Assembly (NCBI GenBank): GCA_963737345.1
Contig: CAVTSM010000005.1
Span: 334,064-398,063 of the forward strand
Length of the DNA: 64,000 bases
Direction of reading: 5' to 3'
Origin: an uncultured Pseudomonadota bacterium
GTDB taxonomy: Bacteria; Myxococcota_A; Polyangia; Fen-1088
The translations under genes were made by a program, and so were the position numbers. This document shows, piece by piece, positions 3,366 to 31,834 of the stretch (position 1 is the stretch's first letter; every line of letters starts with the position of its first letter). The notes under the pieces are model-generated. The model was not told the origin of the DNA and ran no database searches. It saw only the letters and a list, made by a program, of their open reading frames with translations.

Positions 3366-4850
3366 TTACGCGACCTCCGGCGGAAGGCGCTTGTGCCAAT
3401 CGGTCGCGGCCTCGTACGCGCCGGCGACGCGGAAGCAGATCTCTTCGCCCAACGCGGGGCCGATGGTCTGCAGCCCGATCGGCAGACCCGCCTTGGTAAA
3501 GCCGCACGGCTGGGAGATCGCGGGGATGCCGGCCAGATCCGGGGCCACGGTGAAGATGTCTGCCAGGTACATCTGCAGCGGGTCAGCCATGCGCTCACCC
3601 AACTTGAACGCCGGCACAGGCGAGGTGGGGGTGACGATGGCGTCGCACTGGGCGAAAGCCGCCGCGAAGTCGTCGGCGATCTTTCGGCGCGCCCGCAGCG
3701 CCTTGCCGTAGTAGGCCTCGTAGTAGCCGGCGCGCAGCACGTAGGCGCCCAGCATGATCCGCCGCTTCGGCTCGGCGCCGAAGCCCTCGCCGCGCGTGCG
3801 GGTGTAGAGCTCTTCGAGCGACCGCGCCTCGCCGGTGCGGTACCCGTACTTGACGCCGTCGTAGCGCGCCAGGTTCGACGACGCCTCGGCCGTGCAGACG
3901 AGGTAGTAGGTGGCGATCGCGTATTTGGTGTTGGGCAGCGACACCGGCACCACCGTCGCCCCCGCCTTGCCCAGCTCTTCGATCGCGGCGCGCACGGCTG
4001 CCTCGACCTCGGCGTCCATGCCGGGCTGGAAGTACTCCGCCGGCATGCCGAGGCGGACGCCCTTCAGCGGCGATCCACTTTGGCGCCCGGCGCGCGCCGC
4101 CTGCCGGTACGCGCCGACGGGTGCGGGGATAGACGTCGCGTCCAGCGGATCCGGGCCGGCCATGACCTCCAGCAGCGCCGCCGCGTCCTCGACCGTCCGG
4201 CCGAACGGCCCCGGGTGGTCCAGCGACGAGGCAAAGGCGATCACGCCATACCGCGAGACGCGGCCGTAGGTCGGCTTCATGCCCACGATCCCGCACAGCG
4301 ACGCCGGCTGGCGAATCGACCCGCCGGTGTCGGTGCCGATCGCGCCCGCGCACAGCGAGGCGGCAACCGCGGCCGCCGAGCCCCCCGACGAGCCGCCCGG
4401 CACGTGGGCCGTCGACCACGGGTTGCGCGTGGGCTTGACGGAGCTGTTCTCCGTCGAAGAGCCCATCGCGAACTCGTCCATGTTCAATTTGCCCAGCGCG
4501 ACGGCGCCGGCGGCGGCCAGGCGCGCGGTCACCGTCGATTCATACGGGGGGACGAAGCCCCGCAGGATCTTCGACGCGCAGGTCGTTTCGACCCCTTTCG
4601 TGCAGAAGATGTCCTTGATTCCCAGCGGCACGCCCGCCAGCGGCCCCGGATCGTGTCCGGCCTTCACGCCGGCGTCGACGGCGTCGGCGCTGCGCCGCGC
4701 CCCTTCGGCGTCGACCAGCAGGTAGCACCCGAGGCCGCCGTCCAGGCGCGCCACGCGGTCCAGGAACTGCTCGGTGACCTCGCGCGCCCGCAGCTTGCCC
4801 GACCGAACCGCCTCGGCGATGGCCAGCGCAGACGCCCCACGCGCCTCCAT
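3366..4850 (-). CDS. gatA: Asp/Glu-tRNA amidotransferase subunit A (amidase)
   Basis: 494-aa ORF with the amidase signature GGSSGGSAAAVA and the GatA-type IKDIFCTKG. Confidence 0.95.
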   Translation of the reverse strand: MEARGASALAIAEAVRSGKLRAREVTEQFLDRVARLDGGLGCYLLVDAEGARRSADAVDAGVKAGHDPGPLAGVPLGIKDIFCTKGVETTCASKILRGFVPPYESTVTARLAAAGAVALGKLNMDEFAMGSSTENSSVKPTRNPWSTAHVPGGSSGGSAAAVAASLCAGAIGTDTGGSIRQPASLCGIVGMKPTYGRVSRYGVIAFASSLDHPGPFGRTVEDAAALLEVMAGPDPLDATSIPAPVGAYRQAARAGRQSGSPLKGVRLGMPAEYFQPGMDAEVEAAVRAAIEELGKAGATVVPVSLPNTKYAIATYYLVCTAEASSNLARYDGVKYGYRTGEARSLEELYTRTRGEGFGAEPKRRIMLGAYVLRAGYYEAYYGKALRARRKIADDFAAAFAQCDAIVTPTSPVPAFKLGERMADPLQMYLADIFTVAPDLAGIPAISQPCGFTKAGLPIGLQTIGPALGEEICFRVAGAYEAATDWHKRLPPEVA

Positions 4851-20285: not shown

Positions 20286-20435
20286 GGTTAACCGACCTGC
20301 CGTTCAGCAGCGAACGCCGAGGTCGCGTTCGAGCGTATGCTCGCGAGGAGCCGCGGCTTAGCCCCTGGCGTCGCGGCGCGAGCGAAGTTCTGCGCGCACC
20401 GCGTGATGTTCGGCTGCTGCAACGGCTTGTTACGC
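20286..20435 (-). repeat. attC-like site 1 (150 bp, long class)
   Basis: On the + strand it reads GGTTAAC...GCCGTTCAGCAGCGAACGCC...GTTCGGCTGCTGCAACGGC..GTTACGC. The palindrome arms carry unpaired bases on the + strand 3' arm. It ends 1 nt from the stop of ORF 20437..20793. Confidence 0.75.
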
Positions 20436-20436
20436 C

Positions 20437-20793
20437 TCAGACCGGTGCGAATGCATCGGGCGAGGACTTGAACACCTCGCGAAGTCGGTGAGTGATGACT
20501 TCATCGTCGGGAATCACGGCCCAATACTGGCGGTCAGCCGTGTCCTCATCCAACGACGGAGCCACCTCCAACACTCGGCCAGCGGGAGCCAGCGCGAAGA
20601 ACTCGAAGCCCCGCATCGCTGCGCGAATCTCATCTTGGGACAGCAGTTCGAGAGCGTGGTGGACGCCTCCATTCATCACGAGTCCGTGGACACGCAGCAG
20701 AGCTGCCAGCGCGAGGTCCCCTTCGCGTGGTACTGCGCCACCACATTCAAGGGCGGCTCGGTTCCAAACGCGGGCTTCGACGGAAAGGTCCAT
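20437..20793 (-). CDS. cassette 1: hypothetical 118-aa protein
   Basis: A single ORF fills the interval between attC1 and attC2. It appears helical. No domain recognised. Confidence 0.6.
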   Translation of the reverse strand: MDLSVEARVWNRAALECGGAVPREGDLALAALLRVHGLVMNGGVHHALELLSQDEIRAAMRGFEFFALAPAGRVLEVAPSLDEDTADRQYWAVIPDDEVITHRLREVFKSSPDAFAPV

Positions 20794-20806
20794 GGCGAGG
20801 ATGTCC

Positions 20807-20959
20807 GGCTAACGTCCTGCCGTTCAGCAACGAACGCCAAGGCGCGTTCGAGCGTAACACGGCCGCGAGGAGCGGCGGGAGTAGCCCGCGGCGTCGCGGC
20901 ACGAGACCGCCTCCGAGCGGATACGCGTGGCGTTCGGCTCCTGCAACGGCCGGTTGGCA
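20807..20959 (-). repeat. attC-like site 2 (153 bp, long class)
   Basis: It reads GGCTAAC...GCCGTTCAGCAACGAACGCC...GGCGTTCGGCTCCTGCAACGGC..GTTGGCA. It shares the CGCGAGGAGC.GCGG...AGCCC..GGCGTCGCGGC core with attC1 and attC4. Confidence 0.75.
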
Positions 20960-20963
20960 GCAC

Positions 20964-21278
20964 TCACGCGGCTGGATCGGTCTTGCTCCATTTTGGCAAC
21001 CCGCAGTGCAGGCAGCGCGAAGCGAATGGATTCTTCCGGACGCGGGACCAGAAAAAGCGGCTTCTGCACCTGGGACAACGCCAAAGAACGCTAACGATGC
21101 TGGTCGTCTGAAAGACTAGGAGCCAGACGACGAGCAAGAAGACCGGCGGGCGCGGGCTCAAGGGGTAGGCAAGCCACCCAAAAAGAAGGAACCAGGACAC
21201 TGAGGTCCAGGCAGCGTAGGACCTCCAACTGGCCGCGTACGGCCTTTCCACAGCTGAGACACTCATCGACCTGTGCAA
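20964..21278 (-). CDS. cassette 2: small membrane protein with C-terminal zinc-ribbon
   Basis: 104 aa with two hydrophobic helices (WTSVSWFLLFGWLAY and VFLLVVWLLVFQTTSIVSVLW), followed by CPRC-x16-CLHC. Confidence 0.6.
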   Translation of the reverse strand: MHRSMSVSAVERPYAASWRSYAAWTSVSWFLLFGWLAYPLSPRPPVFLLVVWLLVFQTTSIVSVLWRCPRCRSRFFWSRVRKNPFASRCLHCGLPKWSKTDPAA

Positions 21279-21289
21279 CCCGCTTGTCT

Positions 21290-21351
21290 GTCCAACGTCG
21301 TGGCGTTAACCCGCGGGCCGAAGGCCCGTCGGGTTCAACGCCGGGTTCGAC
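21290..21351 (-). repeat. attC-like site 3 (62 bp, short class)
   Basis: It reads GTCCAAC-GTCGTG-GCGTTAACCCGCGGGCC-GAA-GGCCCG(T)CGGGTT(C)AACGCC-GG-GTTCGAC. The RYYYAAC box is perfect. Two unpaired bases lie on the + strand 3' arm. Confidence 0.85.
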
Positions 21352-22513
21352 GGCGGAACCTCGCGCACCTGCAAGCATCGCCGTTTGACAAGGGCCTTGG
21401 CTGCCTTGGCCAGATCTCCCTTGGTCTCATCTGGTCTGAGTTCGCCGCTCTCCAACAACTCGACGTCGGCCATGATGGTCTCGGCAAGGAGTGACCGAGC
21501 ACGTGGAGCAAGGCGTTCAAAGTCCTGCTGCTCGCGCGCGGTACCGTGTGCCGCTCGACTGCGGAGCTCGTAGATTCGCTTCAAATCGCTATCGACCTCC
21601 TCTTCGAGTCTCGACGACAAGAGCGTCGCACCGTGGAGACAGAACTTGTAGGTCGACTCACCGGGATCTGGGACGAGCAATGACTCGAGCCCGATCGCGG
21701 CTTCGAGGAGCGAATCACGGGCGGTTGGAGACGTGTGTGACCTGCCCAAGAGCCACATGATCGACTCGAGTTCCGGCGCGACCGACATCAGCTTGTCCAC
21801 GCGCTGAAGCAGCTTGGAAGCCTCGCGGACGACACTCTCATCGAGCCTGATGATGCTTCGGGCACCATTTCGAAACGTGGTCGTGTCTTGGCGTCGAATG
21901 GTCGGTCCCTTCCAACCGCTCGGCGAGCGCAGGATGACTCCACCTTCACCGAAGGTCAGGACCGAATTGGCGGCGATCATCAGGGCCCACTTCACGAAGT
22001 CAATCTCACGGGTAACTGCCTGGATCGCAGTGCCGTCGGCCGCCGCGGTCGCGAGCACTCCCTCTAAATTGATTTCAAGCAGGCCCGGACTTGCCCAAGT
22101 CGACGGATCATCGTCCACGTATTCGTGATGATACCGGGTCAAAAAAAGACACCGCTCGTCGAGCGACCAGGAGCGAAGGGCGACGCCGGGCCTTAGCGTC
22201 ACGGACAGGTTATCGGGGACGTGGGCCAAACTGAGAGGGCACAGCGCCTTTACGGAACGACGCTCCGAGCAAACGGTCCGGGCCACATCAAGAGCCGCCG
22301 CTTCCGCATCAGCCGGATCGACCTCCCAGGGAGCGTAAGTGCCAGAGTCAGCCAACTGACGTGTTGCTGATAGAGAACAAAGGTACAGAAGCGGTACCTG
22401 AACGAGGTCAGTCCATGTGAAGTCGGCCCATGCTTCCTTGCCGGGAACTCCCTCCCCGTCCTGGCTGATCTTCTTCGGCAAGGCACCGGTATCCCAGAGA
22501 TAGTCGATTAGGC
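21306..22513 (-). pseudogene. cassette 3, C-terminal fragment of an IS66-disrupted gene (Apea-like HEPN C-terminal domain)
   Basis: In track ORF 21306..22574, the first 20 codons and the first base of codon 21 are read from the IS66 left end. Native sequence resumes at ...RLIDYLWDTG. The C-terminus contains ...AAIGLESLL...LKRIYELRSRAAHG (Rx4H). Confidence 0.8.
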
Positions 22514-22572
22514 GTAACCGTCCGACCGACGACGTCTTACCGCGCCCGTAGCCGACGGGCAGTCTGGCGTGC

Positions 22573-22911
22573 ATGAAGCAGCGAGAAGAGAGACGTCAGT
22601 TCTGGTCGGCGCTTGTGGCGCGATTCGAGAAGAGCGGGCGGTCCCGAAGGGAATTCGCGGCCGACGCGGGCGTCGGGCTCGCGATCTTCCAGTACTGGCT
22701 CTACAAGCTTCGGCGTGAGCGCACGACGGTCGCCGCCAGCAGGGCCGCTGTCCCAGAGGTCCGTTTGGTACCGGTCACCGTCAAGGCGCGGCCGGTTCCG
22801 ACTCGGCTCGAGCTCCGTGTCGCCGGCATACGGCTCCGGGTCCCCGTTGGCGCGGACGCCGGATACGTCGCGCAGCTGGCGATGGCGCTCCGCGAGGGGC
22901 GTTCGTGCTGA
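22573..22911 (+). CDS. tnpA: IS66 accessory protein TnpA (orfA)
   Basis: 112 aa with an HTH-like N-terminus (RREFAADAGVGLAIFQYWLYKL). It is the first ORF of the IS66 unit. Confidence 0.85.
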   Translation: MKQREERRQFWSALVARFEKSGRSRREFAADAGVGLAIFQYWLYKLRRERTTVAASRAAVPEVRLVPVTVKARPVPTRLELRVAGIRLRVPVGADAGYVAQLAMALREGRSC

Positions 22912-23279
22912 CGCTCCCGCCGAGCGTTCGGATCTATCTCGCGATCGGCCAGGTGGACATGCGCCGCGGGCACGATGGGTTGGCGGCCATCGTCCACGGG
23001 CAATGGAAGCTCGATCTGTACGGCGGCCATCTCTTTGTCTTCCTCGGCCGCCGCGCCGACCGCTGCAAGATCTTGTTCTGGGATCGGGGCGGCTTCGTCC
23101 TCTACTACAAGCGCCTCGAGCGCGGGCGATTTCGCCTGCCACGCGTCGCCGCCGACGCGGTCTCTGTCGCGATCGACGCCACCGAGCTGGCGATGCTGCT
23201 CGACGGGATCGACGTCGTCGCGGTGAAGCGGCCCCCAAAATGGGAGCCGACCTCGCTCGCGGCCGCCTCGCCCGCGTAG
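22905..23279 (+). CDS. tnpB: IS66 accessory protein TnpB (orfB)
   Basis: 124 aa with the characteristic VRIYLAIGQVDMRRGHDGL...LFVFLGRRADRCKILFWDRGGF. It overlaps tnpA by 7 nt. Confidence 0.9.
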   Translation: MLTLPPSVRIYLAIGQVDMRRGHDGLAAIVHGQWKLDLYGGHLFVFLGRRADRCKILFWDRGGFVLYYKRLERGRFRLPRVAADAVSVAIDATELAMLLDGIDVVAVKRPPKWEPTSLAAASPA

Positions 23280-23364
23280 AAATAGCTGGATCATTCCGAT
23301 CGCTTGCGCCGCCTCTACAGAAAGGGGATCGACAGGATCGGCGCGGTATGATCAAACATGATCG

Positions 23365-24792
23365 ATGGGGCCGCCGGCCGACGACCACGACTGCGGGTGG
23401 AAGACTCGCGCCGCGGACCTCGAAGCGAAGCTCGAGGAGGTGGCCGCCAAGATGGCCGCCATGGAGCGCCGGATCCTGGGGCCGAAGAGCGAGAAGCTTC
23501 CGCCGATGGATCGGGAAGTCCGCAAGCAGCGACCGGCAGATCCCGCCGCGACGCGCGCGACCCGACGCAAGAACGCCGAGCTGCGCGCCACCCGCGTCGT
23601 AACCGAGGACGTCCCGCACAAGGTGCCGGAGGCGGAGCGCACGTGCCCCAAGTGCGACGGCGCTGACCTTCGGCCCGTCGGTGACGGCAAGGTGTCGATG
23701 GTGCTGGACTACGTGCCCGGGTACTTCCGGCGCCGCCAGCACATTCGCGAGACGCTGGCCTGCGTGTGCGGCGATCACATCGTGACGGCGCCCGGTCCTG
23801 ACCATTCCATCGAGGGTGCGCGCTACGGCGACAGCTTCCGTGCTTTCGTCGTCACCTCCAAGTGCGCCGACGCGATCCCTCTTTACCGGCAGGCCAAGCA
23901 GATGAGCCGCCTCGGGATCCCGATCTCGCGCAGCACGCTCACGGACCTGCTGCACCAAGCGGCCCGTCAGCTCGCGCCGCTGTCGAAGCGGCTGCTCGAA
24001 CTGGTCGCCGCCGCGGAGGTCGTGCAAGCGGACGAGACGTCACTGAAGATGCAGCAGCCGAACAAGCGGGGCTTCGTCTGGACCTTCCTCGCGGAGAAGC
24101 TCATTGCGTACGTCTTCTCGAGCAGCCGCAGCGGCGAGACGCCGTCGACGGTCCTGGGGGCGAGCACGGGGACGCTCGTGGTCGACATGTACACCGGGTA
24201 CAACGAGGTCACCAGCACCGGCGGTCGGACGCGGGCTGCCTGTCTCGCGCACGCGCGGCGCCGCTTCTTCGACGCGCTCTCGTACGCGCCGGAGGCTCGC
24301 ACCGCGCTCGAACTGATCCGCGACGTGTACGTGGTGGAGCACGACGCAAAGGCCGACGGCGTCGCGCGCACCGACGAGCACACCAACCTCCGCCGAGCGC
24401 GTTCGCGGCCAATCATGGACCGCCTGCACAGCTGGCTCGTCGAGCGAAAGGACCAGTACGCGCCGAAGGGCCCCATGGCGAGCGCCGTCCGGTACGCTCT
24501 GAACAACTGGGACGAGCTTACCCGCTTCCTCGACGACGCGCGCATTCCGCCCGACAACAATCGCAGCGAGTCGGCGCTTCGAGTCGTGGCTCTCGGTCGC
24601 AAGAACCTCCTGTTCGTGGGTCATGAGCAAGCCGGCGCCAACATCGCCGGCCTCTACTCCCTCACCGCCACTTGCGAAGCGAACGGTGTCGAACCCATCG
24701 CCTACCTGACCGACGTCCTCGGCCGCGTCGGCTCCCATCCTGCTTCCGCCCTCGACGATCTCCTGCCCCACAAGTGGCGGCCGTCGGGCTGA
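23365..24792 (+). CDS. tnpC: IS66-family transposase TnpC
   Basis: 475 aa with an N-terminal coiled coil, a zinc-finger CPKCDG, and a DDE core (VQADETSLKM...DMYTGYN...). Confidence 0.92.
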   Translation: MGPPADDHDCGWKTRAADLEAKLEEVAAKMAAMERRILGPKSEKLPPMDREVRKQRPADPAATRATRRKNAELRATRVVTEDVPHKVPEAERTCPKCDGADLRPVGDGKVSMVLDYVPGYFRRRQHIRETLACVCGDHIVTAPGPDHSIEGARYGDSFRAFVVTSKCADAIPLYRQAKQMSRLGIPISRSTLTDLLHQAARQLAPLSKRLLELVAAAEVVQADETSLKMQQPNKRGFVWTFLAEKLIAYVFSSSRSGETPSTVLGASTGTLVVDMYTGYNEVTSTGGRTRAACLAHARRRFFDALSYAPEARTALELIRDVYVVEHDAKADGVARTDEHTNLRRARSRPIMDRLHSWLVERKDQYAPKGPMASAVRYALNNWDELTRFLDDARIPPDNNRSESALRVVALGRKNLLFVGHEQAGANIAGLYSLTATCEANGVEPIAYLTDVLGRVGSHPASALDDLLPHKWRPSG

Positions 24793-24868
24793 CCACGCCT
24801 CGGTCCTCACGCTACCTCGATACCCCGGTCGCCCCCGGTCGTCACGACGTCGCCGGTCGGACGGTTAC

Positions 24869-25150
24869 GATTAGGCGATTCGCCTCGGCGCATTTCGCGG
24901 CGGCTCCTCGAACGTCCCAAATCGACGTACGGTAGTTGGGCGACGGAATCGCCGAGGATTCGATCCCCTCGTGGGGCCCGGACGCTCGGCGGTACACATA
25001 CCGTTCGGTGTTCGTGACTGGTGCTTCGCGAAGTTCTCGAGCGGCACCCAATAGGGCATCGCGAACGAGGGCAGCGAGGTGGCCAACGTCGATCGGCTTT
25101 GCCGGACCTAGAGGAATCGTGATCTCACTCATCGTCGCCCGTCCGTCCAA
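24869..25150 (-). pseudogene. cassette 3, N-terminal fragment of the IS66-disrupted gene
   Basis: Track ORF 24842..25150 runs from the cassette into the IS right end. The native part ends ...KCAEANRLI at the target duplication. The start is either ATG 25150 (inside attC4) or ATG 25132 (MSEITI...). Confidence 0.75.
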
Positions 25151-25297
25151 CGTTTTGCCGTTCAGCGGTGAACGCCGAACGGATGTGCGATCGTACCACG
25201 GCCGCGAGGAGCCGCGGGCGCAGCCCGCGGCGTCGCGGCACTGCCCGCGCTCGGGCGAGCCGCGCGGGCGTTCATCCGCTGCAACGGCTTGTTAGGC
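25145..25297 (-). repeat. attC-like site 4 (153 bp, long class)
   Basis: It has perfect boundary boxes, GTCCAAC and GTTAGGC. The arms are GCCGTTCAGCGGTGAACGCC / GGCGTTCATCCGCTGCAACGGC. The stop of ORF 25292..25615 lies inside the terminal box. Confidence 0.85.
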
Positions 25298-25615
25298 GGC
25301 GTACCAACTCGGCGCTTCGCGGCTGCCCGACCAGCCCCAGTCACGGAGCATGTCGACAATCTGAGATTCGTCGAACTCGGCATCAGGCGAGTCGTCGAGG
25401 CAAGAGTAGCCAAACCCGGCGTCCACCAGTCGCTGCGTGACAGCCTCGATCTCTCGATACGAGGTAACGAGCAGCATTCCGCGCCGAGCACCGAACTCCG
25501 CCAAGAGCACCGGCACCGTCAGCCGTTCGCCCGCGAGGTCGACCTCGAACGGAATCTGGACCTTGAGACCGAATCGCGCGGCAATCCGGACCCAGTGCTG
25601 CTGGAATGCCGTCAT
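25292..25615 (-). CDS. cassette 4: hypothetical 107-aa protein
   Basis: A single small ORF. Its TAA stop is embedded in the attC4 core. No domain recognised. Confidence 0.6.
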   Translation of the reverse strand: MTAFQQHWVRIAARFGLKVQIPFEVDLAGERLTVPVLLAEFGARRGMLLVTSYREIEAVTQRLVDAGFGYSCLDDSPDAEFDESQIVDMLRDWGWSGSREAPSWYAA

Positions 25616-25721
25616 TCTTGTCCGCCTAGTCAGAATGGAACGACCGGCTCACGCCTGGGCGTGGGTTACGTTCGGGCTCGGTAAGAAGTCCAACCGCAGA
25701 GCCACAAAGGAGGAGCCGGTC

Positions 25722-26846
25722 ATGATCAAGAGTACACGATTCGTGGGATTGGATGTTCACGGCCAGACCATCGCGGCGGCGATCGGCGACGGGTACGGTA
25801 AGGCGCGCAGTCTCGGCCAGTTTCCCAATCGGCCTGAAGCGGTGCGCAGGTTCATCGAGCAACTCGGCGGGCCCGCGGGGCTCAAGATCTGCTACGAGGC
25901 CGGTCCGACGGGGTACGCGCTGTACTGGCAGCTCGCGAAGATGGGCGTCGATTGCGAGGTCGTCGCGCCGTCGTTGATCCCGCGCAAGCCGGGCGAGAAG
26001 ATCAAAACCGACCGGCGCGATGCCGAGAAGCTCGCGCAGTGCCTCCAGAGCGGCACGCTGACCAGCGTCTGGGTCCCCGACGCCGCCCACGAAGCGCTGC
26101 GCGACCTGGTTCGCGCGCGAGCCGCCGCCAAGAGCGACGAAAGCCGCGCGAAGCACCGGCTCGTGAAGTACCTGCTTCGAAACGGGCTCCGACATCCCGA
26201 CGACTGTCGCGCGTGGACGCACCCTTGGTGGCGCTGGGTTCAGGGCATCACCTTCGACCACGACACCCAGCAGGTCACGCTGGCCGACCTCGTCGCCCAG
26301 GTCCTCCATCAGCGCGAGCGGCTGGCACGGCTCGACCTGGCGATCGACCGCGCGATCGAATCGGCGCCGCCCGAGAAGAAGGCGGTCATCGATGCGCTGC
26401 AGGCGCTGCGGGGCGTCGCCAAGCTCACCGCAGTCACCATCGTCACGGAGGTCGGCACCTTTCAACGGTTCCGCAAGCCGACGGAGCTCATGGGTTACAC
26501 CGGGCTCGTCCCGTCTGAGTACTCGAGCGGCGCACGAGAAGCCAAGGGCCGAATTACCCGAACCGGCAATGCCCATCTTCGGCACGTGCTCGGCGAGGCA
26601 GCCTGGCATGCGCGCCACCGACCCTGGTTGAACGTCCGCCTCAAGAAAACGCTTCCCACCCTGCCGGCGGGCATCTCCGAGATCGCCTGGAAGGCGCAGG
26701 AGCGACTGCATCGCAAGTTCACCAAGCTGACCTTCCACCGAAAGCCGCCGGCCAAAGTGGCGACGGCCGTGGCGCGGGAATTCGTCGGCTTCATCTGGGC
26801 GATCGGCCGCCTCGCCGAGAGCCACGCCACGAGAGCCGTCGCGTAG
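25722..26846 (+). CDS. IS110-family DEDD transposase
   Basis: 374 aa starting MIKSTRFVGLDVHGQT (the first D of the DEDD motif). The C-terminal region LQALRGVAKLTAVTIVTEVG...RFRKPTELMGYTGLVPSEYSSG matches the Transposase_20 region. An AAGGAGG RBS lies upstream. Confidence 0.92.
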   Translation: MIKSTRFVGLDVHGQTIAAAIGDGYGKARSLGQFPNRPEAVRRFIEQLGGPAGLKICYEAGPTGYALYWQLAKMGVDCEVVAPSLIPRKPGEKIKTDRRDAEKLAQCLQSGTLTSVWVPDAAHEALRDLVRARAAAKSDESRAKHRLVKYLLRNGLRHPDDCRAWTHPWWRWVQGITFDHDTQQVTLADLVAQVLHQRERLARLDLAIDRAIESAPPEKKAVIDALQALRGVAKLTAVTIVTEVGTFQRFRKPTELMGYTGLVPSEYSSGAREAKGRITRTGNAHLRHVLGEAAWHARHRPWLNVRLKKTLPTLPAGISEIAWKAQERLHRKFTKLTFHRKPPAKVATAVAREFVGFIWAIGRLAESHATRAVA

Positions 26847-27149
26847 CAGGACGACCAACACACCGATGAACCTGAGGATGGCGAGCCGAGCAGCACGGAA
26901 AGGAGAATCCTCGAAAATCGTTATGCGGCAACCAACCCGCGATGCCTAGTCCGAGGCAGCTCCCGACGCATCAAAGACTGTGAGGTACGTCGCCGCGCTC
27001 CGCGCGTCGACCAACCCTCGAATATCAGCCTGATCAACCGTCGACTCAGCTCGCTCGGCTCGTCATCCCCAGGTTCATCGACAACCTGAAAGGCAACAAC
27101 GCGACAACTACCACCCGAACGCCCGATTCAAGTTGCGGGGTCGTTCCAT
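26847..27149 (+). ncRNA. candidate IS1111-type bridge RNA / seekRNA region (hypothesis)
   Basis: 303-nt non-coding right end. It contains GCCTAGTCcGA (26944-26954), a 10/11 match to the DNA just outside the left IR (25624-25634). It also contains ATATCA and ATCAAC motifs (27022-27038) that mirror the right junction CATATCAAC. Confidence 0.3.
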
Positions 27150-27232
27150 ATCAACGATACTGGCGTTCAGCGGCGGACGCGAGAGGGAGCGGAGCGACCG
27201 ACGCGTCCGCCGCCTGCAACGCCGGGTTAGAC
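27149..27232 (-). repeat. attC-like site 5 (about 84 bp)
   Basis: It reads (T)ATCAAC-GATACT-GGCGTTCAGCGGCGGACGCG...CGCGTCCGCCGC(C)TG(C)AACGCC-GG-GTTAGAC. The left boundary box abuts the IS right IR. Confidence 0.8.
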
Positions 27233-27796
27233 CGCGCGCAGGGTTACCGCTCCGCCTTGAATCAATGCCTGTGCGCCGGCCAGGATGGGACGCGAACCGC
27301 TCCGCGCGACTGCGAGCGTATCGCGGATGTACGTGTTGATACGGCGAGAGACCCTTGTTACCTCGGTGAAGTCCCACTCGGCGAGCGGTGGAAAATGAGG
27401 GTAGCTCGGTTCCCATTTCAGCGCCCGTACTTCGGTGTTGTGGTTCGTGTGGCTCGGCGGAAGCGCGCCTTCACGGACGCCCCGAAGACTCAACTGGATG
27501 AGGCCCCAGCCTTCGATAGTCTCGCGCCACGGGGTTGCCGCCAAGGCTTTGGGTTTCAGGTCGATGCGACTGATCCGATAGCGACCTCTCATCGACGGGC
27601 TGTAGAGCATCAGCTCGACAGACTGGCTTCTCGCACCGTCGAACACTTCCAGGACGTCTTGCAACGTCTTAAACCGCCGAAGTCCCTTTCCCGGTACGGA
27701 ATAGCTCTCAAACACCTCGCACCCCGCAGCGCCTAGCACGAAGGCGAGGACAGCGTCCAGATCCGGCCTGGCCGCATAGAAGTCGAGATTCGGCAT
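27227..27796 (-). CDS. cassette 5: hypothetical 189-aa protein
   Basis: I chose the start at MPNLDFY (ATG 27796) because the track start at 27856 lies inside attC6. The stop is embedded in the attC5 core. No domain recognised. Confidence 0.6.
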   Translation of the reverse strand: MPNLDFYAARPDLDAVLAFVLGAAGCEVFESYSVPGKGLRRFKTLQDVLEVFDGARSQSVELMLYSPSMRGRYRISRIDLKPKALAATPWRETIEGWGLIQLSLRGVREGALPPSHTNHNTEVRALKWEPSYPHFPPLAEWDFTEVTRVSRRINTYIRDTLAVARSGSRPILAGAQALIQGGAVTLRAV

Positions 27797-27807
27797 CGTC
27801 CGAGTCG

Positions 27808-27869
27808 GTCTAACGACCAGGCGTTCAGCGGCGGCGCGCAGCGCGGTCCGCTGCAACGCCTTGTTAGGC
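27808..27869 (-). repeat. attC-like site 6 (62 bp)
   Basis: It reads GTCTAAC-GACCAG-GCGTTCAGCGGCGG...CCGCTG(C)AACGCC-TT-GTTAGGC. Both boundary boxes are perfect. Confidence 0.88.
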
Positions 27870-28100
27870 AGCGCCCCTGTGGAGCGGCCGCACCGAGATC
27901 AAGTCCTCGTCCATCACCGCGCGGACGTCGCTGAGCCGCAGTGTTACGAGCGCCTGGGTTCGACCCGACGCGGTGACGAACTCCACTTCGAGACCGTCAG
28001 GTTCGTACGTCTGCACGACCGCTCCGAGATCGCCCTTCCGGAGACCATTCTCCGGGACGTCCCGATCCAGAACTACCGTGTCGAGTTGCTTGAACGTCAT
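27864..28100 (-). CDS. cassette 6, gene 2: DUF4926-like small protein
   Basis: 78 aa. FKQLDTVVLDRDVPENGLRKGDLGAVVQTYEPDGLEVEFVTASGRTQALVTL matches my recollection of the DUF4926 pattern. The stop lies inside the attC6 core. Confidence 0.6.
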   Translation of the reverse strand: MTFKQLDTVVLDRDVPENGLRKGDLGAVVQTYEPDGLEVEFVTASGRTQALVTLRLSDVRAVMDEDLISVRPLHRGAA

Positions 28101-28104
28101 CGCG

Positions 28105-28443
28105 TCATCCTGGATATGCCGTCACGAATCTCGGGGCATCCTCGCCCATCAAGACCACCCAGACTGTTACAACCTGAGCCTGCCGACCGGATGGTCCCTT
28201 AAGCGTACCACGGACCTCGTACTTCCGGCCGAACTGGCTCGCCTGCCCTTCGATCGCGTCGACGTGTCGGCAGAGGTCCAGCAGATCCGTCTGCAGACGA
28301 CTCCAATCTGCCTGCGAGTATCCGAGCGCTTCGAAAAACACGGCCTTGAACCGACCGACCGGATGCTCCCGCGAGAGCAGATAGTCGCGAACTTTAGCCT
28401 CCTCGACGATTGCGTGATCGGCCTGCGGCAACACCATCAGCAC
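28105..28443 (-). CDS. cassette 6, gene 1: DUF6883-like protein
   Basis: 112 aa. KVRDYLLSREHPVGRFKAVFFEALGY matches my recollection of the DUF6883 signature. It ends 4 nt before the DUF4926-like gene. Confidence 0.55.
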   Translation of the reverse strand: MLMVLPQADHAIVEEAKVRDYLLSREHPVGRFKAVFFEALGYSQADWSRLQTDLLDLCRHVDAIEGQASQFGRKYEVRGTLKGPSGRQAQVVTVWVVLMGEDAPRFVTAYPG

Positions 28444-28453
28444 CTCGAAAGCT

Positions 28454-28538
28454 GCCTAACGATACAGCCGTTCAGCGGCGGGCGGCCACCCGAGCGACGC
28501 GAGGAAGGCCGATCGGCCGCTGCAATGCCTTGTTATCC
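28454..28538 (-). repeat. attC-like site 7 (85 bp)
   Basis: It reads GCCTAAC-GATACA-GCCGTTCAGCGGCGGGCGGCC...GGCCGCTG(C)AATGCC-TT-GTTATCC. Confidence 0.8.
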
Positions 28539-28566
28539 GGCCGCACTGAGGTCAGGTGCCGCCGAT

Positions 28567-28866
28567 TCATGCTCGCCTCTTCTTAGACCAGAGGTGGTCG
28601 GCACCCGCTATCCCGATGCCCAGGACGACCAAAGGCCAGCCGAACATAACATGCGATTCTGCCCGCCGAAATCGTGTCGCTTCCCATTCGCTGACGAAGA
28701 TGTGAGACCCATGATGGACAATCATCGGCACGACTCTACCCGAACTCGGATCCGGAGCCCTCGGCATCGTCGCGGCATACGACGAGTCGAGATAGATTGT
28801 TCGTCCCCCGAGGACCAGCCCCGCTAGGAACGACATCACAGCAATCGCCCTTCTCAAGACAGCCAT
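28567..28866 (-). CDS. cassette 7: small two-TM membrane protein
   Basis: 99 aa with hydrophobic helices AIAVMSFLAGLVLGG and VMFGWPLVVLGIGIAGA and a basic C-terminus KKRRA. Confidence 0.55.
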   Translation of the reverse strand: MAVLRRAIAVMSFLAGLVLGGRTIYLDSSYAATMPRAPDPSSGRVVPMIVHHGSHIFVSEWEATRFRRAESHVMFGWPLVVLGIGIAGADHLWSKKRRA

Positions 28867-28876
28867 TCGTCCGTCC

Positions 28877-28940
28877 GGATAACGTTCCGGCGTTAACCCG
28901 CGGGCGCGGAGCGCCCGTCGGGTTCAACGCCTTGTTGGAC
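28877..28940 (-). repeat. attC-like site 8 (64 bp, short class, near-twin of attC3)
   Basis: It reads GGATAAC-GTTCC-GGCGTTAACCCGCGGGCGC-GGA-GCGCCCG(T)CGGGTT(C)AACGCC-TT-GTTGGAC. Confidence 0.85.
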
Positions 28941-29784
28941 CGCCGCTCACGCCCGCGCCTTCCACAGCATCCCCCGAATCACGCGGCGTGCCATTTCGCT
29001 GTTTCGCTTCTGCGGCAGCAAGACGGAGAACCGATGGATGGTTAGGTCGCTTCAAACACTGGGACATCACGGCCATCGCGACCACAGTGACGACCGTCCG
29101 ATAGGCAGCCATCGCCGCATGGATTTCCTTCTCACCGACCGCTGTTGGGTGTCTGGGGCATGCCTTTTGGCGCGCCACAAGCACGCCGGTGTCGTCGAGC
29201 CCCAACTCGAAGATCCCCTGATCATGCACCGCTGTGTTACGCAGTGTGGGATAGTGCACAAGGCATTTCGTTGTGTCCTCATCGAGCGCGAGTTGCAGAC
29301 CGAATGTCTCGCGGAGAAAGCCCAGACGGCCCGCGAAGGGAAGGAACGAGATTTCCCGTGCCTTTTTGACCGCGGTCGCAGACAACACGGCGTGTACCGA
29401 CGTTGCCCCAATCATGGAGCCCAAGGGTACCTGGTGGTTCTTCCCAAGCGACTCCGGGAAGTGCAGGAGAAGAAAGAGTGTAGTGTCCGTCAGGAACGTG
29501 TCGAGCAGCGTTGTTGCGTAGATCAGAAGGCTGATATCGCTGACGTAACAGAGAGAGTCGTAGGAGGACGCTTCGATCTTTTCAAAATCGCTGAGCGTCC
29601 CACCCCAGTTCGTCGGAAGGGCGTTGCTCTGGGCGTCGTGCCGGTACTGGGTATATGCACACATCAGACGCAACTGTGTCGCTTCCGCCCCGTAGAAACG
29701 AACGAGGCCGAGGCCGAAAGAAGACACTACGCGGGCGTAGACGTCGGCGGCGCGGTCATCATCATATGGCCTTGGACTCTTCAT
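28924..29784 (-). CDS. cassette 8: HEPN-motif (Rx4H) protein, Abi-like
   Basis: The likely start is MKSPRPYDDD (ATG 29784). The track ORF extends to 29994 with an Arg/Pro-rich, non-coding-looking N-terminus. It contains ...VHYPTLRNTAVHDQG (RNxxxH). Local GC is low. Confidence 0.6.
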   Translation of the reverse strand: MKSPRPYDDDRAADVYARVVSSFGLGLVRFYGAEATQLRLMCAYTQYRHDAQSNALPTNWGGTLSDFEKIEASSYDSLCYVSDISLLIYATTLLDTFLTDTTLFLLLHFPESLGKNHQVPLGSMIGATSVHAVLSATAVKKAREISFLPFAGRLGFLRETFGLQLALDEDTTKCLVHYPTLRNTAVHDQGIFELGLDDTGVLVARQKACPRHPTAVGEKEIHAAMAAYRTVVTVVAMAVMSQCLKRPNHPSVLRLAAAEAKQRNGTPRDSGDAVEGAGVSGGPTRR

Positions 29785-30042
29785 TTGGGTGCCCTGCGGT
29801 CCGTCCCGAACTCCCATTATGCCGCGAGCTTGCCTGTTATTGCCGCAAGGTTCTGGGCTCCGTCTCGCTCGGGTGCAAAGGAGTTCTGCGGGCTTGCTGG
29901 GCCGGGGGCGGTGTCTATCACGGTGGCGTTGCTGGATAACGCGATAAGGGCCGCGTGTCGCCGAGGAGTGGCGCGGGTCGTCTGAACGGGGCACTGGGTC
30001 AATGAGGCGCTGGTTCGCGCGTCTCTTGGTGCGGCACCCCGA

Positions 30043-31834
30043 TTACAGGGCGTAGCCGCCGGCTTCGATGACGTGTTTGGCGATTTTGCGGCGCAGGGAG
30101 AAGGTGTTGACGCGATCGAGGTTGTAGTAGTTGTTGATGTCGCGGACTTCGCGGCCCCACTCTTCGTCCTGGGACATCCACATCATCATTTCGCGCAGCA
30201 GGTGAAAGACCTGTTCGTGCGCGTTGGCAACGAAGAGCTGGGTCATGCAAATTGGAATCTGGCTTTGGGCTTCGCCCTTGGCGGCGATGAGCTGCAGGGT
30301 CCGCGAGATCGCCGAATCCATGCCGAAGGTCAAAATGATTGCGTCGGCCAGGCCGCCCAGCAGCTCTTGTTTCTCTGAGATCTGCTGCATGTACTTCTGT
30401 ACGCCCAGGGACGCGCCGTAGGCGATGGCGCGCTTGGCGTAGTCGCACTTCTTTCGCTCGCGCCCCAGCGGGCCGTCGGGAATGCGGCGATCGATCTTGA
30501 TGGGGTCGGCGAGCTCTTGCTGCACCTGCGCGACCAGGGACATCAGCGCCAGGCGGCCGGTCAGCGCGCGCTTCAGGATCGTGCCCGGCACCAGCAGCCG
30601 GTTGATCTCGTTGGTTCCCTCGAAGATGCGGTTGATGCGCGCGTCGCGGCTGACCCGCTCGATCGGGTAGTCCGCGATGTAGCCGGCGCCGCCGAAGATC
30701 TGCAGGGTCTCGTCGGCGCTGGCGTGCATCATCTCGGAGCCGAACACCTTGATGATCGACGCCTCGATGGCGTGCTCTTCGATGCCGTCGATCTCCTTTT
30801 TCTGCGCCTGCGGGTCGGCCGGATCGATCGCCGCCGACCGCGCGTCCAAGCAGGCCCGCGGTGCGGAAGGCCATCGACTCGGCGACGTACGTGTTGGTCG
30901 CGATGTCGCCCAGCTTCTTGCGAATGAGATCGAACTCGGCGATCGGTTTGCCGAACTGTTTGCGCTCGCGCGCGAACTTCACGCCCAGCTCCAGGCAGTA
31001 CTTGGCGCCGCCCACGGCGCCCACGCCCAGCTTCCAGCGGCCGATGTTCAGGATGTTGAAGGCGATCTTGTGACCCTGGCCGATCGTTCCCAGCACGGCG
31101 TCGATCGGAATCGTGCAGTCCTCGAGGAAAAGCGGGCAGGTCGAGCTGCCGCGGATGCCCAGCTTGTGCTCCTCGGGCCCGATGGTCAGGCCAGGTGCGC
31201 CGCGTTCCACCAAGAACGCCGTGAACTGCTCGCCGTCGACCTTCGCGAAGATCGTGAACAGGTCGGCGAATCCCGCGTTGGTGATGTAGAGCTTCGAGCC
31301 GGTCAGCTTCCAGCTCTTGCCGTCGGCGGACTTCACCGCTTTGGTCTTGGCCGCCAGCGCGTCCGACCCCGAGCCTGGCTCAGTCAGCGCGTAGGCGGCG
31401 ATGCTCTCGCCGCTGGCCAGCTTGGGCAGGTATTTCTGTCGCTGCTCGGCCGTGCCGAAGAGGACCAGCGGCATGGTCCCGATGCCGACGTGCGCGCCGA
31501 AGCTGACCGCGTAAGAGCCCTGCTTGCTGGCCGCCTCGGTGATCAGGCTGGAGCTGGTCTTGTCGCCCCCGAGGCCCCCGTACACCTCTGGAACGTCGTG
31601 CCCCAAGAGGCCCACGGCGCCGGCCTTCTGCAAGAGCTCGCGCATGAGACCGGGCTTCTTGGCCTCGATGTCCGCGACCCGCGGCATCACCTCGCGCGCG
31701 ATGAAGTCGTCCGCGGTCTCCTTCATCATCCGTTGCTCGTCGCTGAGCATCTCCGGCGTGAAGACAGTGACCGATCCGGTCGGCTCGAGCAGAAACCCGC
31801 CGCCGGGCGAAAGCGTGATCGAAGGGGCGCCCAT
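30043..31834 (-). pseudogene. acyl-CoA dehydrogenase with an apparent 1-nt frameshift near 30850
   Basis: The N-terminal ~328 codons, in the frame of 31834, are ACAD-like (YALTEPGSGSDA, ...GIRGSSTC...). The C-terminal 268 codons continue in ORF 30043..30849 (...IFEGTNEINR...). The junction reads AFRTAGL / LDARSAAID. Confidence 0.8.

What the first reader, a model, noticed from the sequence alone, without database searches (positions are those of the whole stretch)
25616..27232. IS110/IS1111-type element inserted exactly at an attC core, with a 3' non-coding end carrying guide-like matches to its own junctions (candidate bridge/seekRNA)
Seen in sequence:
- A DEDD transposase gene (25722-26846) is bracketed by 11-bp inverted repeats at 25635-25645 and 27139-27149.
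- The right IR abuts the ATCAAC box of attC5. On the cassette strand this reads ...GTTGAT|IS, which is inside the GTTRRRY core. The left IR lies only 19 nt upstream of the cassette-4 start codon. The IS therefore occupies the attC/cassette junction.
- The 5' non-coding end is about 90 nt and the 3' end about 300 nt.
- Within the 3' end, GCCTAGTCcGA (26944-26954) matches the DNA immediately outside the left IR (GCCTAGTCaGA, 25624-25634) at 10/11 positions. ATATCA...ATCAAC (27022-27038) echoes the right junction CATATCAAC.

Established knowledge:
- A subgroup of IS1111 elements specifically targets attC sites.
- IS110-family recombinases are guided by an element-encoded bispecific RNA. This RNA lies 3' of the gene in the IS1111 group.

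Inference: this element may encode a guide RNA programmed for attC-type targets. The short matches could still be chance; I estimate odds on the order of 1 in 100 for the 11-mer.
Basis: partly seen in the sequence, partly recalled or inferred. Interest (0 to 1): 0.7.

Follow-up and report, generated by a model that had tools for sequence, protein, structure and literature searches.

The report
RNA-guided insertion sequence in integron attC
This is an intact IS1111-type insertion sequence whose own 3' non-coding RNA carries guide segments matching the integron recombination-site core it sits in; it is a new lineage and a new sub-site for a mechanism first described in 2024.

Summary
Its main inference, an element-encoded guide RNA programmed for attC, is supported.

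**Boundaries.** The 11-bp inverted repeats are subterminal. The element runs 25629-27153 (1,525 bp), with GTCAGA outside the left repeat and ATCA outside the right one. It splits the attC R' core GTT|AGGC, read on the cassette (-) strand, with 1 nt of ambiguity.

**RNA fold.** The 3' non-coding region folds into a long covarying stem bearing two arms (47 relatives, 94% of cells paired, 24 pairs with compensatory changes).

**Target guides.**
- Arm 1 is an internal loop. Its 5' side, AUCGUUA, is complementary to the + strand of the uninterrupted target, TA|ACGAT.
- Its 3' side, GCCUAG-UC, copies the left flank plus the first bases of the element.
- Across 53 distinct copies both segments match their own flanks better than shuffled flanks in 10,000 of 10,000 permutations.
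- Relatives in other sites carry matching guide changes.

**Donor side.** Arm 2 carries invariant AUAUCAG, which is the right end plus the first base of the left end. It is a probable donor loop.

**Relationship to known elements.** The transposase is only 26-27% identical to ISKpn4 and ISPa25. ISKpn4 inserts at the opposite (R''-L'') end of attC.

**Verdict.** This is a new member of a known kind. Nothing has been tested experimentally.

The parts
25629..27153 (+). Complete insertion sequence, 1,525 bp. Either boundary may shift by 1 nt, because the base A is shared by the flank and the element's end.
   Evidence: Flank comparison of about 56 copies, plus uninterrupted attC sites in the window that read GnCYAACG.
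25620..25628 (-). Left target half, GTCCGCCTA. On the cassette strand it is the (T)AGGCGGAC part of the split R' core and the start of the next cassette.
25629..25634 (+). Left terminal extension GTCAGA, outside the repeat. Bases 25631-25636 (CAGAAT) form a candidate -10 of a circle-junction promoter.
   Evidence: The extension is conserved in relatives. The pattern xAxxAT is kept in 56 of 56 copies.
25635..25645 (+). Left subterminal inverted repeat, ATGGAACGACC.
25722..26849 (+). Transposase gene, 374 aa plus stop. It has a DEDD/RuvC-like N-terminal domain, a PF02371 C-terminal domain, and the motif GLVPSEYSSG.
26866..27078 (+). Structured guide (bridge/seek) RNA. The closing stem pairs 26866-74 with 27070-78 and 26877-91 with 27053-67, and encloses two arms.
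26902..26963 (+). Arm 1, the target-binding loop. Stems pair 26902-05 with 26960-63 and 26909-13 with 26952-56. The distal hairpin is 26924-41.
26917..26923 (+). 5' guide AUCGUUA. It is complementary to the + strand of the uninterrupted target, TA|ACGAT.
   Evidence: It covaries with the right flank: observed score 350 against a permuted mean of 288 (sd 6.6), with 0 of 10,000 permutations as high.
26944..26951 (+). 3' guide GCCUA plus GUC. It has the same sense as the + strand left flank GCCTA plus the first three bases of the left end, so it pairs with the - strand.
   Evidence: Observed score 236 against a permuted mean of 211 (sd 3.8), with 0 of 10,000 permutations as high. In L101, GUA in the RNA matches a GTA left end.
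26964..27043 (+). Arm 2, the probable donor-binding loop. Stems pair 26964-68 with 27039-43 and 26982-85 with 27016-19. The variable hairpin is 26989-27011.
26976..26980 (+). GACUG. It is complementary to the + strand of the circle junction, CA|GTC.
   Evidence: GAC is nearly invariant. One covarying case was seen at left-end position +3. The assignment is an inference.
27022..27028 (+). AUAUCAG. It equals the right-end terminus ATATCA plus the first base (G) of the left end.
   Evidence: UAUCAG is invariant and the leading A is kept in at least 90% of the 47 relatives.
27133..27138 (+). TTGCGG, a candidate -35 of the circle-junction promoter. It lies 17 nt from CAGAAT once the ends are joined.
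   Evidence: TTGnnn is present in 54 of 56 copies, and TTGACA in 4.
27139..27149 (+). Right subterminal inverted repeat, GGTCGTTCCAT.
27150..27153 (+). Right terminal extension, ATCA.
   Evidence: Invariant in all copies, including relatives with 38-49% transposase identity.
27154..27232 (-). Body of the interrupted attC. On the - strand it runs from R'' GTCTAAC to ...ATCGT, the first bases of the R' core.

Best explanation
Bases 25629-27153 are an intact IS1111-family insertion sequence. It is a DEDD transposase gene flanked by subterminal 11-bp repeats.

**How it most likely works**
- Its 304-nt 3' non-coding region is transcribed into a structured RNA that directs the transposase to its insertion site by base pairing.
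- The RNA is a three-way junction: a long closing stem bearing two arms.
- Arm 1 is an internal loop with two guides.
  - The 5' strand, AUCGUUA, pairs with the + strand of the target over TA|ACGAT.
  - The 3' strand, GCCUA, pairs with the - strand over the left flank. It continues with GUC, which matches the first bases of the element's own left end. That is the left junction formed after strand exchange, analogous to the 'handshake' guide of bridge RNAs.
- Together the two guides specify GCCTA|ACGAT. On the cassette strand this is ATCGT|TAGGC, the R' (GTTRRRY) core of an integron attC site at the boundary with the next cassette.
- Arm 2 probably holds the donor: the joined ends of the excised circle, ...CCATATCA|GTCAGAATGG... 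It would do so through invariant AUAUCAG and GAC(UG).
- Joining the ends would also assemble a promoter: TTGCGG, 17 nt, CAGAAT.

**Shown by sequence analysis**
- the element's boundaries and its target;
- the conserved fold;
- covariation of both arm-1 guides with the flanks.

**Inferred**
- that the RNA is made and binds the transposase;
- the donor role of arm 2;
- the junction promoter;
- current activity of this copy.
For: **Family and ends**
- The transposase domains and the motif GLVPSEYSSG are present.
- The repeats and terminal extensions are invariant in about 56 full copies from Polyangia genomes and soil or peat metagenomes.
- Uninterrupted attC sites in the window show that the two flanks rejoin into a normal site: the rejoined junction GCCTAACG matches the G-N-C-Y-AACG motif carried by six of the seven.

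**Fold**
- The fold z-score is -6.2 for the whole non-coding region and -7.6 for the RNA core.
- In the consensus structure, 94.4% of cells are paired, against 32-45% when partners are slid by 1-3 columns. Twenty-four pairs show compensatory changes, and 0 of 500 shuffles reach this.

**Guide-flank covariation**
- L008: flank TA|GCGGC with guide GCCGCUA.
- L109: flank TA|GGGGC with guide GCCCCUA.
- L101: flank A|GGCCGC with guide GCGGCCU. Its left end GTA goes with GUA in the RNA.
- L044/45: flank GGATA with guide GGAUAG.
- L087: flank CGTCGA with guide CGUCGAG.
- Permutation tests gave 0 of 10,000 for each guide.

**Comparison with a validated element**
- The experimentally validated ISKpn4 seekRNA has the same layout: 5' guide, hairpin, 3' guide, all inside one internal loop (PMC11187229).
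- The top-strand guide lying 5' of the bottom-strand guide is the IS1111 order reported in that paper.
Against: - There is no expression or biochemical evidence. No Rfam family matches the region, and no promoter or terminator for the RNA was found on the linear sequence.
- Donor-side pairing rests almost entirely on invariant bases, so it could not be tested by covariation. In the clade with left end GTCATG, the two bases after GAC do not match the right end.
- Donor and target share only 1 nt (A), whereas IS621 has a 2-nt core.
- Only one copy lies in the window, and a perfect target 1.3 kb away (28454-63) is empty.
- The related copies are phylogenetically non-independent, which inflates the permutation statistics.
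Confidence: 0.85

Rival explanations
1. A 'seekRNA-only' model. Arm 1 does all the RNA-guided recognition. It reads the target-derived flanks both at the resident copy, for excision, and at the new site, for insertion. The element's ends are recognised by the protein through the subterminal repeats. Arm 2 is then only a protein-binding scaffold or part of a precursor.
For: Siddiquee et al. found that an 82-nt RNA was sufficient for ISEc11 transposition. Retargeting required changing the donor flanks as well as the guides (PMC11187229). Arm 1 plus its flanking bases is about that size. The arm-2 segments are invariant, so they provide no covariation evidence.
Against: AUAUCAG reproduces the joined right and left ends exactly and is invariant in 47 relatives. 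GAC is complementary to the first three bases of the left end and changes with them in L101. Arm 2 mirrors the geometry of arm 1: the 5' strand is complementary to the + strand and the 3' strand has the same sense. Durrant et al. report donor-binding nucleotides in multi-loops of IS1111 bridge RNAs (PMC11208160).
Confidence: 0.3
2. The 3' non-coding structure is not a guide. It would be, for example, an mRNA-stabilising or regulatory structure. The attC core would then be recognised by the protein, and the short matches to the junctions would be chance or leftovers of past recombination.
For: No RNA has been detected. There is no Rfam match. attC sites in this host are alike, so conserved flanks alone would not prove guidance.
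Against: The guide bases change together with the flanks, in the direction that keeps complementarity. This includes three relatives sitting in non-attC sequence. The guides lie in the unpaired strands of a conserved internal loop. The same arrangement has been shown experimentally to guide ISKpn4, ISEc11 and ISPa11 (PMC11187229).
Confidence: 0.04
3. The copy in the window is a fixed, no longer mobile remnant. Its features reflect past rather than present activity.
For: It is the only copy in 64 kb. A perfect target at 28454-63 is unoccupied. One related copy, L019, has lost part of a guide.
Against: The reading frame is full length and matches the family profile end to end. The ends, the fold and both guides are intact, and the guides match this copy's own flanks at every position.
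Confidence: 0.25

Closest known systems
ISKpn4 / ISPst6 / ISPa21, the 'IS1111-attC group', with an experimentally shown seekRNA (Siddiquee et al. 2024, PMC11187229)
   Same: - It has a DEDD transposase, subterminal repeats beginning ATGGA with short terminal extensions, and a long non-coding region 3' of the gene.
- The guide RNA has a 5' guide, a hairpin and a 3' guide within one internal loop.
- It inserts orientation-specifically into attC sites, antisense to the cassettes.
   Different: - The transposase is only 26% identical, against 74-90% within that group and 46% for ISPa25.
- ISKpn4 sits a few bases 3' of the R'' core, at the 5' end of attC (...TAACAATTC|...TTCAAGCC). The window element splits the R' core at the 3' end, which is the cassette boundary.
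- The host is Polyangia (Myxococcota), in a chromosomal attC array, rather than class 1 integrons of Pseudomonadota.
IS1533 of Leptospira, called an IS1111 family member in PMC11187229
   Same: It is the closest of the 12 ISfinder transposases sampled: 33% identity over the full length, 149 bits.
   Different: It is still distant. Its target and RNA were not compared here.
IS621 bridge RNA (Durrant et al. 2024, PMC11208160; Hiraizumi et al. 2024)
   Same: [quoted passage not shown] The left guide runs on into the donor's right half, as the 'handshake' guide does.
   Different: - The RNA is encoded at the 3' end rather than the 5' end.
- The order of top- and bottom-strand guides is reversed.
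- The arms branch from a three-way junction.
- The subterminal repeats are long.
- Donor and target share only 1 nt.
Group IIC-attC introns (PMC3001079)
   Same: They are also mobile elements that use RNA-DNA pairing to home to attC sites, antisense to the cassettes.
   Different: They have an unrelated mechanism (a ribozyme plus a reverse transcriptase), and they insert near the 5' end of attC.

Membership tests
IS1111 family/group of the IS110 superfamily | DEDD (RuvC-like) N-terminal domain plus a PF02371 C-terminal domain | tested here: met
   PF01548 at 1.4e-15, PF02371 at 9.8e-21, and NF033542 at 8.3e-67 covering profile positions 1-339 of 343.
IS1111 family/group of the IS110 superfamily | GL-P----S(T)G motif in the C-terminal domain | tested here: met
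   GLVPSEYSSG is present in the translation. The motif is as defined in PMC11187229.
IS1111 family/group of the IS110 superfamily | Subterminal inverted repeats of 7-17 bp with short terminal extensions | tested here: met
   The 11-bp perfect repeats lie 6 nt from the left terminus and 4 nt from the right terminus.
IS1111 family/group of the IS110 superfamily | The longer non-coding region lies downstream of the transposase gene | tested here: met
   The 3' region is 304 nt and the 5' region is 93 nt.
IS1111 family/group of the IS110 superfamily | Site- and orientation-specific insertion without a target-site duplication | tested here: met
   About 50 of 56 copies sit in the same position and orientation in attC-like sites. 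The only repeated base is the single shared A.
IS1111 family/group of the IS110 superfamily | Transposase related over its full length to IS1111-type transposases, with a typical length of 330-350 aa | tested here: inconclusive
   It is 33% identical to IS1533 (149 bits, full length) but only 22-26% identical to IS4321, ISKpn4 and ISPa11. It is 374 aa long. No tree was built.
IS1111 family/group of the IS110 superfamily | RNA derived from the non-coding region binds the transposase and is required for movement | not testable with these tools
   This needs RNA sequencing, pull-down and a transposition assay.
IS1111-attC group (ISPst6, ISPa21, ISKpn4) | Membership of the monophyletic transposase clade | tested here: not met
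   It is 26% identical to ISKpn4 and 27% to ISPa25. Group members share 74-90% identity.
IS1111-attC group (ISPst6, ISPa21, ISKpn4) | Insertion near the 5' (R''-L'') end of attC | tested here: not met
   The window element splits the R' core at the 3' end. ISKpn4 in pHK31_1 lies just after R'' of the qacL attC. The position of that group is stated in PMC3001079.
IS1111-attC group (ISPst6, ISPa21, ISKpn4) | The target is an integron attC site, and the element is antisense to the cassettes | tested here: met
   Cassette ORFs are on the - strand (DUF6883, 1.3e-32) and the transposase gene is on the + strand.
Bridge RNA / seekRNA | An internal loop whose two strands pair with opposite strands of the target and covary with it | tested here: met
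Bridge RNA / seekRNA | A second loop pairing with the donor (the element's ends) | tested here: inconclusive
   AUAUCAG and GAC match the joined ends, but the ends hardly vary. Only one covarying case was seen, in L101.
Bridge RNA / seekRNA | A match to a curated RNA family model | tested here: not met
   Nothing relevant in Rfam 15 at E up to 10; the sole hit, to a microRNA family inside the transposase gene, looks like chance. Published bridge-RNA models were not available here.

The most novel reading that the evidence does not exclude
This would be a previously undescribed clade of RNA-guided IS1111-family elements in Myxococcota that has independently become a specialist parasite of integrons. 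It would do so by programming its guide to the crossover core of attC (GTT|RRRY), 1-2 nt from where the integron integrase cuts. The element then lies on the downstream-cassette side of the crossover point. It could silence or fuse cassettes, or be carried along when the integrase moves that cassette.
Probability: 0.25. Interest if true: 0.55.

Novelty: new member of a known kind. Interest (0 to 1): 0.35.

Why it matters
- **Convergent targeting.** attC-specific targeting by RNA-guided IS1111-type elements has arisen at least twice. The two lineages use opposite ends of the attC site.
- **A ready test set.** About 56 natural copies have guide bases that track their flanks. They form a ready-made set for working out pairing rules in a 3'-encoded, two-arm bridge RNA.
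- **Effect on integrons.** For integron biology, this is a mobile element sitting exactly at the cassette boundary in chromosomal attC arrays of soil Polyangia. It probably disables that recombination site.
- **Limits.** The mechanism itself is not new.

Tried and rejected
- **Rfam scan.** A scan of 24000-29000 at E up to 10 found only a chance microRNA hit inside the transposase gene.
- **Repeats as termini.** Rejected after comparing flanks and uninterrupted sites.
- **'ATCAAC' (27033-38) as an echo of the right junction.** It is not conserved in relatives, which read GAUCACC or GAUGACC.
- **Pairing of left-end positions 4-6 with RNA columns.**
  - No consistent register emerged, and the per-column z-scores were dominated by single divergent sequences.
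  - The variation is better explained by a -10 hexamer that keeps xAxxAT.
- **Promoter and terminator scan of the linear element.** No promoter was found, and the one terminator-like site lies on the wrong strand inside the gene.
- **Empty-site copy of this cassette junction.** None was found in any fetched locus.
- **Integron integrase next to the array.**
  - The neighbouring ORFs have no hits, and the next gene is an acyl-CoA dehydrogenase.
  - The rest of the window was not searched exhaustively.
- **Tetu & Holmes 2008 (PMC2447020).**
  - The paper is not held.
  - The insertion position of the known group was taken from PMC3001079 and checked directly on an ISKpn4 copy.
- **Plasmid collection.** It holds no relative above 49% identity.
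Full report
**1. Checking the observation**

- The ORF at 25722-26846 encodes a 374-aa protein. It matches PF01548 (DEDD_Tnp_IS110) and PF02371 (Transposase_20).
- It also matches NCBIfam NF033542, 'IS110 family RNA-guided transposase', along the whole profile.
- It carries GLVPSEYSSG, which fits the GL-P----S(T)G motif given for IS1111-type transposases in PMC11187229.
- ATGGAACGACC at 25635-45 and its exact complement at 27139-49 are the only two copies in the window.
- GCCTAGTCaGA (25624-34) and GCCTAGTCcGA (26944-54) are the only two matches to GCCTAGTCNGA. None of 100 shuffles gave two.

**2. True boundaries and target**

Scans of genome and metagenome collections returned 118 loci with relatives. 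The closest come from Polyangia (Myxococcota) genomes and from soil or peat metagenomes.

About 56 distinct full copies keep both 11-bp repeats unchanged. The sequence outside the repeats is also conserved:
- on the left, ...G-T-C-y-G-n-C-y-A then GTCAGA, then the repeat;
- on the right, the repeat, then ATCA, then ACGnnnTGsCGTTCAGC.

The window holds seven uninterrupted sites of the same kind, at 20291, 20812, 21295, 25150, 27813, 28459 and 28882. Six of them read G-n-C-Y-AACG...CGTT(C/A)A(G/C)C, five with the fuller GTCnGnCYAACG form; the site at 20291 reads GGTTAACC.

Joining the two flanks of the element gives GTCCGCCTA+ACGATACTGGCGTTCAGC, which is a normal site. The element is therefore 25629-27153 (1,525 bp). 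GTCAGA and ATCA are terminal extensions, and the repeats are subterminal. One base (A) is shared by the flank and the end, so each boundary is ambiguous by 1 nt.

Subterminal repeats with short extensions are the hallmark of the IS1111 family. PMC11187229 notes that early database entries made the same boundary error.

**3. Orientation of the attC sites**

Cassette genes lie on the - strand.
- A DUF6883 ORF (28443 to 28105, Pfam 1.3e-32) starts 16 nt from the low-coordinate end of the preceding attC.
- The 107-aa ORF next to the element starts at 25615.

On the cassette strand the interrupted site runs R'' GTCTAAC ... ATCGT | element | TAGGCGGAC. The element thus splits the R' core GTTAGGC (GTTRRRY) after GT or GTT. 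That is 1-2 nt from the G|TT crossover point known for integron integrases (established knowledge). The transposase gene is antisense to the cassettes.

**4. The RNA**

The 3' non-coding region folds far better than shuffles. The z-score is -6.2 for 26847-27149 and -7.6 for 26864-27080.

An alignment of 47 non-identical relatives gives a consensus fold. I refined it by hand and counted pairs on it:
- 94.4% of cells are paired, against 32-45% when partners are slid by 1-3 columns;
- 24 of 51 pairs show changes on both sides;
- none of 500 shuffles reached any of the five measures.

The structure has three parts.
- **Closing stem.** It pairs 26866-74 with 27070-78 and 26877-91 with 27053-67. Nearly all of the covariation lies here.
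- **Arm 1 (26902-26963).** Two short stems enclose a 10 x 10 internal loop, capped by a hairpin at 26924-41.
- **Arm 2 (26964-27043).** It has the same kind of layout around a variable hairpin.

**5. The guides covary with the flanks**

The 5' strand of the arm-1 loop contains AUCGUUA (26917-23). This is the exact complement of the + strand of the uninterrupted target, TA|ACGAT.

The 3' strand contains GCCUAGUC (26944-51). This is identical in sense to the left flank GCCTA plus GTC, the first three bases of the element.

The table shows the guides changing together with the flanks.

| Locus | Flank (or left end) | Guide in the RNA |
|---|---|---|
| L008 | TA\|GCGGC | GCCGCUA |
| L109 | TA\|GGGGC and TGTA | GCCCCUA and UGUAG |
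| L101 | A\|GGCCGC and GTTA; left end GTA | GCGGCCU and GUUAG; GUA |
| L044, L045 | GGATA | GGAUAG |
| L087 | CGTCGA | CGUCGAG |
| L073, L065 | GCCGA | GCCGAG |

I shuffled flanks among 53 distinct copies, 10,000 times for each guide.
- The 5' guide scored 350, against a shuffled mean of 288 (sd 6.6). No shuffle reached the observed value.
- The 3' guide scored 236, against a shuffled mean of 211 (sd 3.8). No shuffle reached the observed value.

The copies are related to one another, which inflates these figures. Even so, relatedness alone would not favour complementarity.

The guide that pairs with the top strand lies 5' of the guide that pairs with the bottom strand, and the two overlap at the insertion point. 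PMC11187229 reports this same order for IS1111 seekRNAs.

**6. The donor side (inferred)**

The joined ends of an excised circle would read ...GGTCGTTCCATATCA|GTCAGAATGGAACGACC...

Arm 2 carries two matching segments:
- AUAUCAG (27022-28) on its 3' strand, which is the right terminus plus the first base of the left end. UAUCAG is invariant and the leading A nearly so in 47 relatives;
- GACUG (26976-80) on its 5' strand, which is complementary to CA|GTC.

This mirrors the geometry of arm 1. The ends barely vary, so covariation cannot test the assignment. There is one supporting change, in L101 at left-end position +3. In the clade with left end GTCATG, the two bases after GAC do not fit.

Variation at left-end positions 4-6 always keeps xAxxAT (56 of 56 copies). 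TTGnnn lies 17 nt upstream once the ends are joined (54 of 56 copies; TTGACA in four). This suggests a promoter assembled at the circle junction, as is known for ISEc11 and other family members (inference). No promoter scores on the linear sequence.

**7. Comparison with what is known**

attC-targeting IS1111 elements have been known since 2008-2009. In 2024 Siddiquee et al. showed that ISKpn4 and ISPst6 make a 3'-encoded seekRNA with matches to both strands of their attC target. Durrant et al. predicted bridge RNAs in the right end of 93% of IS1111 elements. The mechanism is therefore known.

The window element is not a member of that attC-targeting clade.
- Its transposase is 26% identical to ISKpn4 and 27% to ISPa25. 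Members of the clade share 74-90% identity.
- Of 12 ISfinder proteins sampled, the closest is IS1533: 33% identity, 149 bits, over the full length. PMC11187229 treats IS1533 as an IS1111 family member.
- The plasmid collection holds nothing above 49% identity.

I located an ISKpn4 copy in plasmid pHK31_1.
- Its repeats are ATGGACTCTCCCC, with extensions of 7 and 4 nt.
- It lies just after the R'' core of the qacL attC (...TAACAATTC|...TTCAAGCC). That is the 5' end of the site, as PMC3001079 states for the group.
- Its non-coding region folds into the same guide-hairpin-guide internal loop, UAACAAUC / UUGAACGC.

The design is thus the same, but the lineage is different and the opposite end of attC is used.

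More distant relatives (38-49% identity) occur in Cupriavidus, Bacillus, Isosphaeraceae and Spirochaetota. They keep the TTGACA-repeat-ATCA right end and a recognisable RNA core (nhmmer E-values from 1e-5 to 1e-15), but they sit in non-attC flanks. The Polyangia clade is therefore one retargeted branch of a widespread subfamily.

**8. State of this copy**

The reading frame, the ends, the fold and the guides are all intact. Both guides match this copy's own flanks at every position.

It is the only copy in the window. A perfect target, GCCTAACGAT at 28454-63, is unoccupied. Whether the element is active now cannot be told from sequence.

**9. Verdict**

The element is a new member of a known kind: a new lineage, a new host group and a new sub-site within attC. 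Interest is moderate to low. The mechanism was published in 2024, and everything here is computational.

Noticed in passing
window 28454-28463: There is an unoccupied attC whose R' junction, GCCTA|ACGAT, matches both guides of the element perfectly. It is the only such 10-mer in the window and in all fetched loci.
   Followed up: partly
window 23365-24792 (+): An IS66-family transposase (NF033517, 2e-110) lies inside the same attC array, between the attC sites at 21295 and 25150. The small ORFs just upstream may be its accessory genes.
   Followed up: no
window 20291-28965: There is an array of at least eight attC sites with cassettes on the - strand. No integron integrase lies next to its upstream (high-coordinate) end; the nearest recognisable gene there is an acyl-CoA dehydrogenase at 29999-31834. 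It may be an attC cluster without an integrase. The rest of the window was not searched.
   Followed up: partly
window 27864-28443 (-): One cassette holds two small genes: a DUF6883 protein (28105-28443, 1.3e-32) and a 78-aa ORF (27864-28100). The layout resembles a two-gene module such as a toxin-antitoxin pair.
   Followed up: no
L019 (about 4168-4382): This related copy has an 8-nt deletion that removes the 3' guide (GC--------AG). It is probably a guide-defective element still sitting in an attC.
   Followed up: no
L042, L067, L070, L074: These metagenome contigs carry the ends of two elements a few hundred bases apart. The spacing suggests insertions into neighbouring attC sites of one array.
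   Followed up: no
L120 (Cupriavidus pENH92), L122 (Bacillus sp. F19), L028, L029, L031: These distant relatives (38-49% transposase identity) share the TTGACA-repeat-ATCA right end, a GnCAnn left extension and a recognisable RNA core. Their flanks are not attC-like, so the subfamily is widespread and variously targeted.
   Followed up: partly
window 27133-27153 joined to 25629-25636: Joining the ends would create TTGCGG, 17 nt, CAGAAT. The pattern is kept in nearly all relatives, with TTGACA in four of them. It is a candidate circle-junction promoter.
   Followed up: partly
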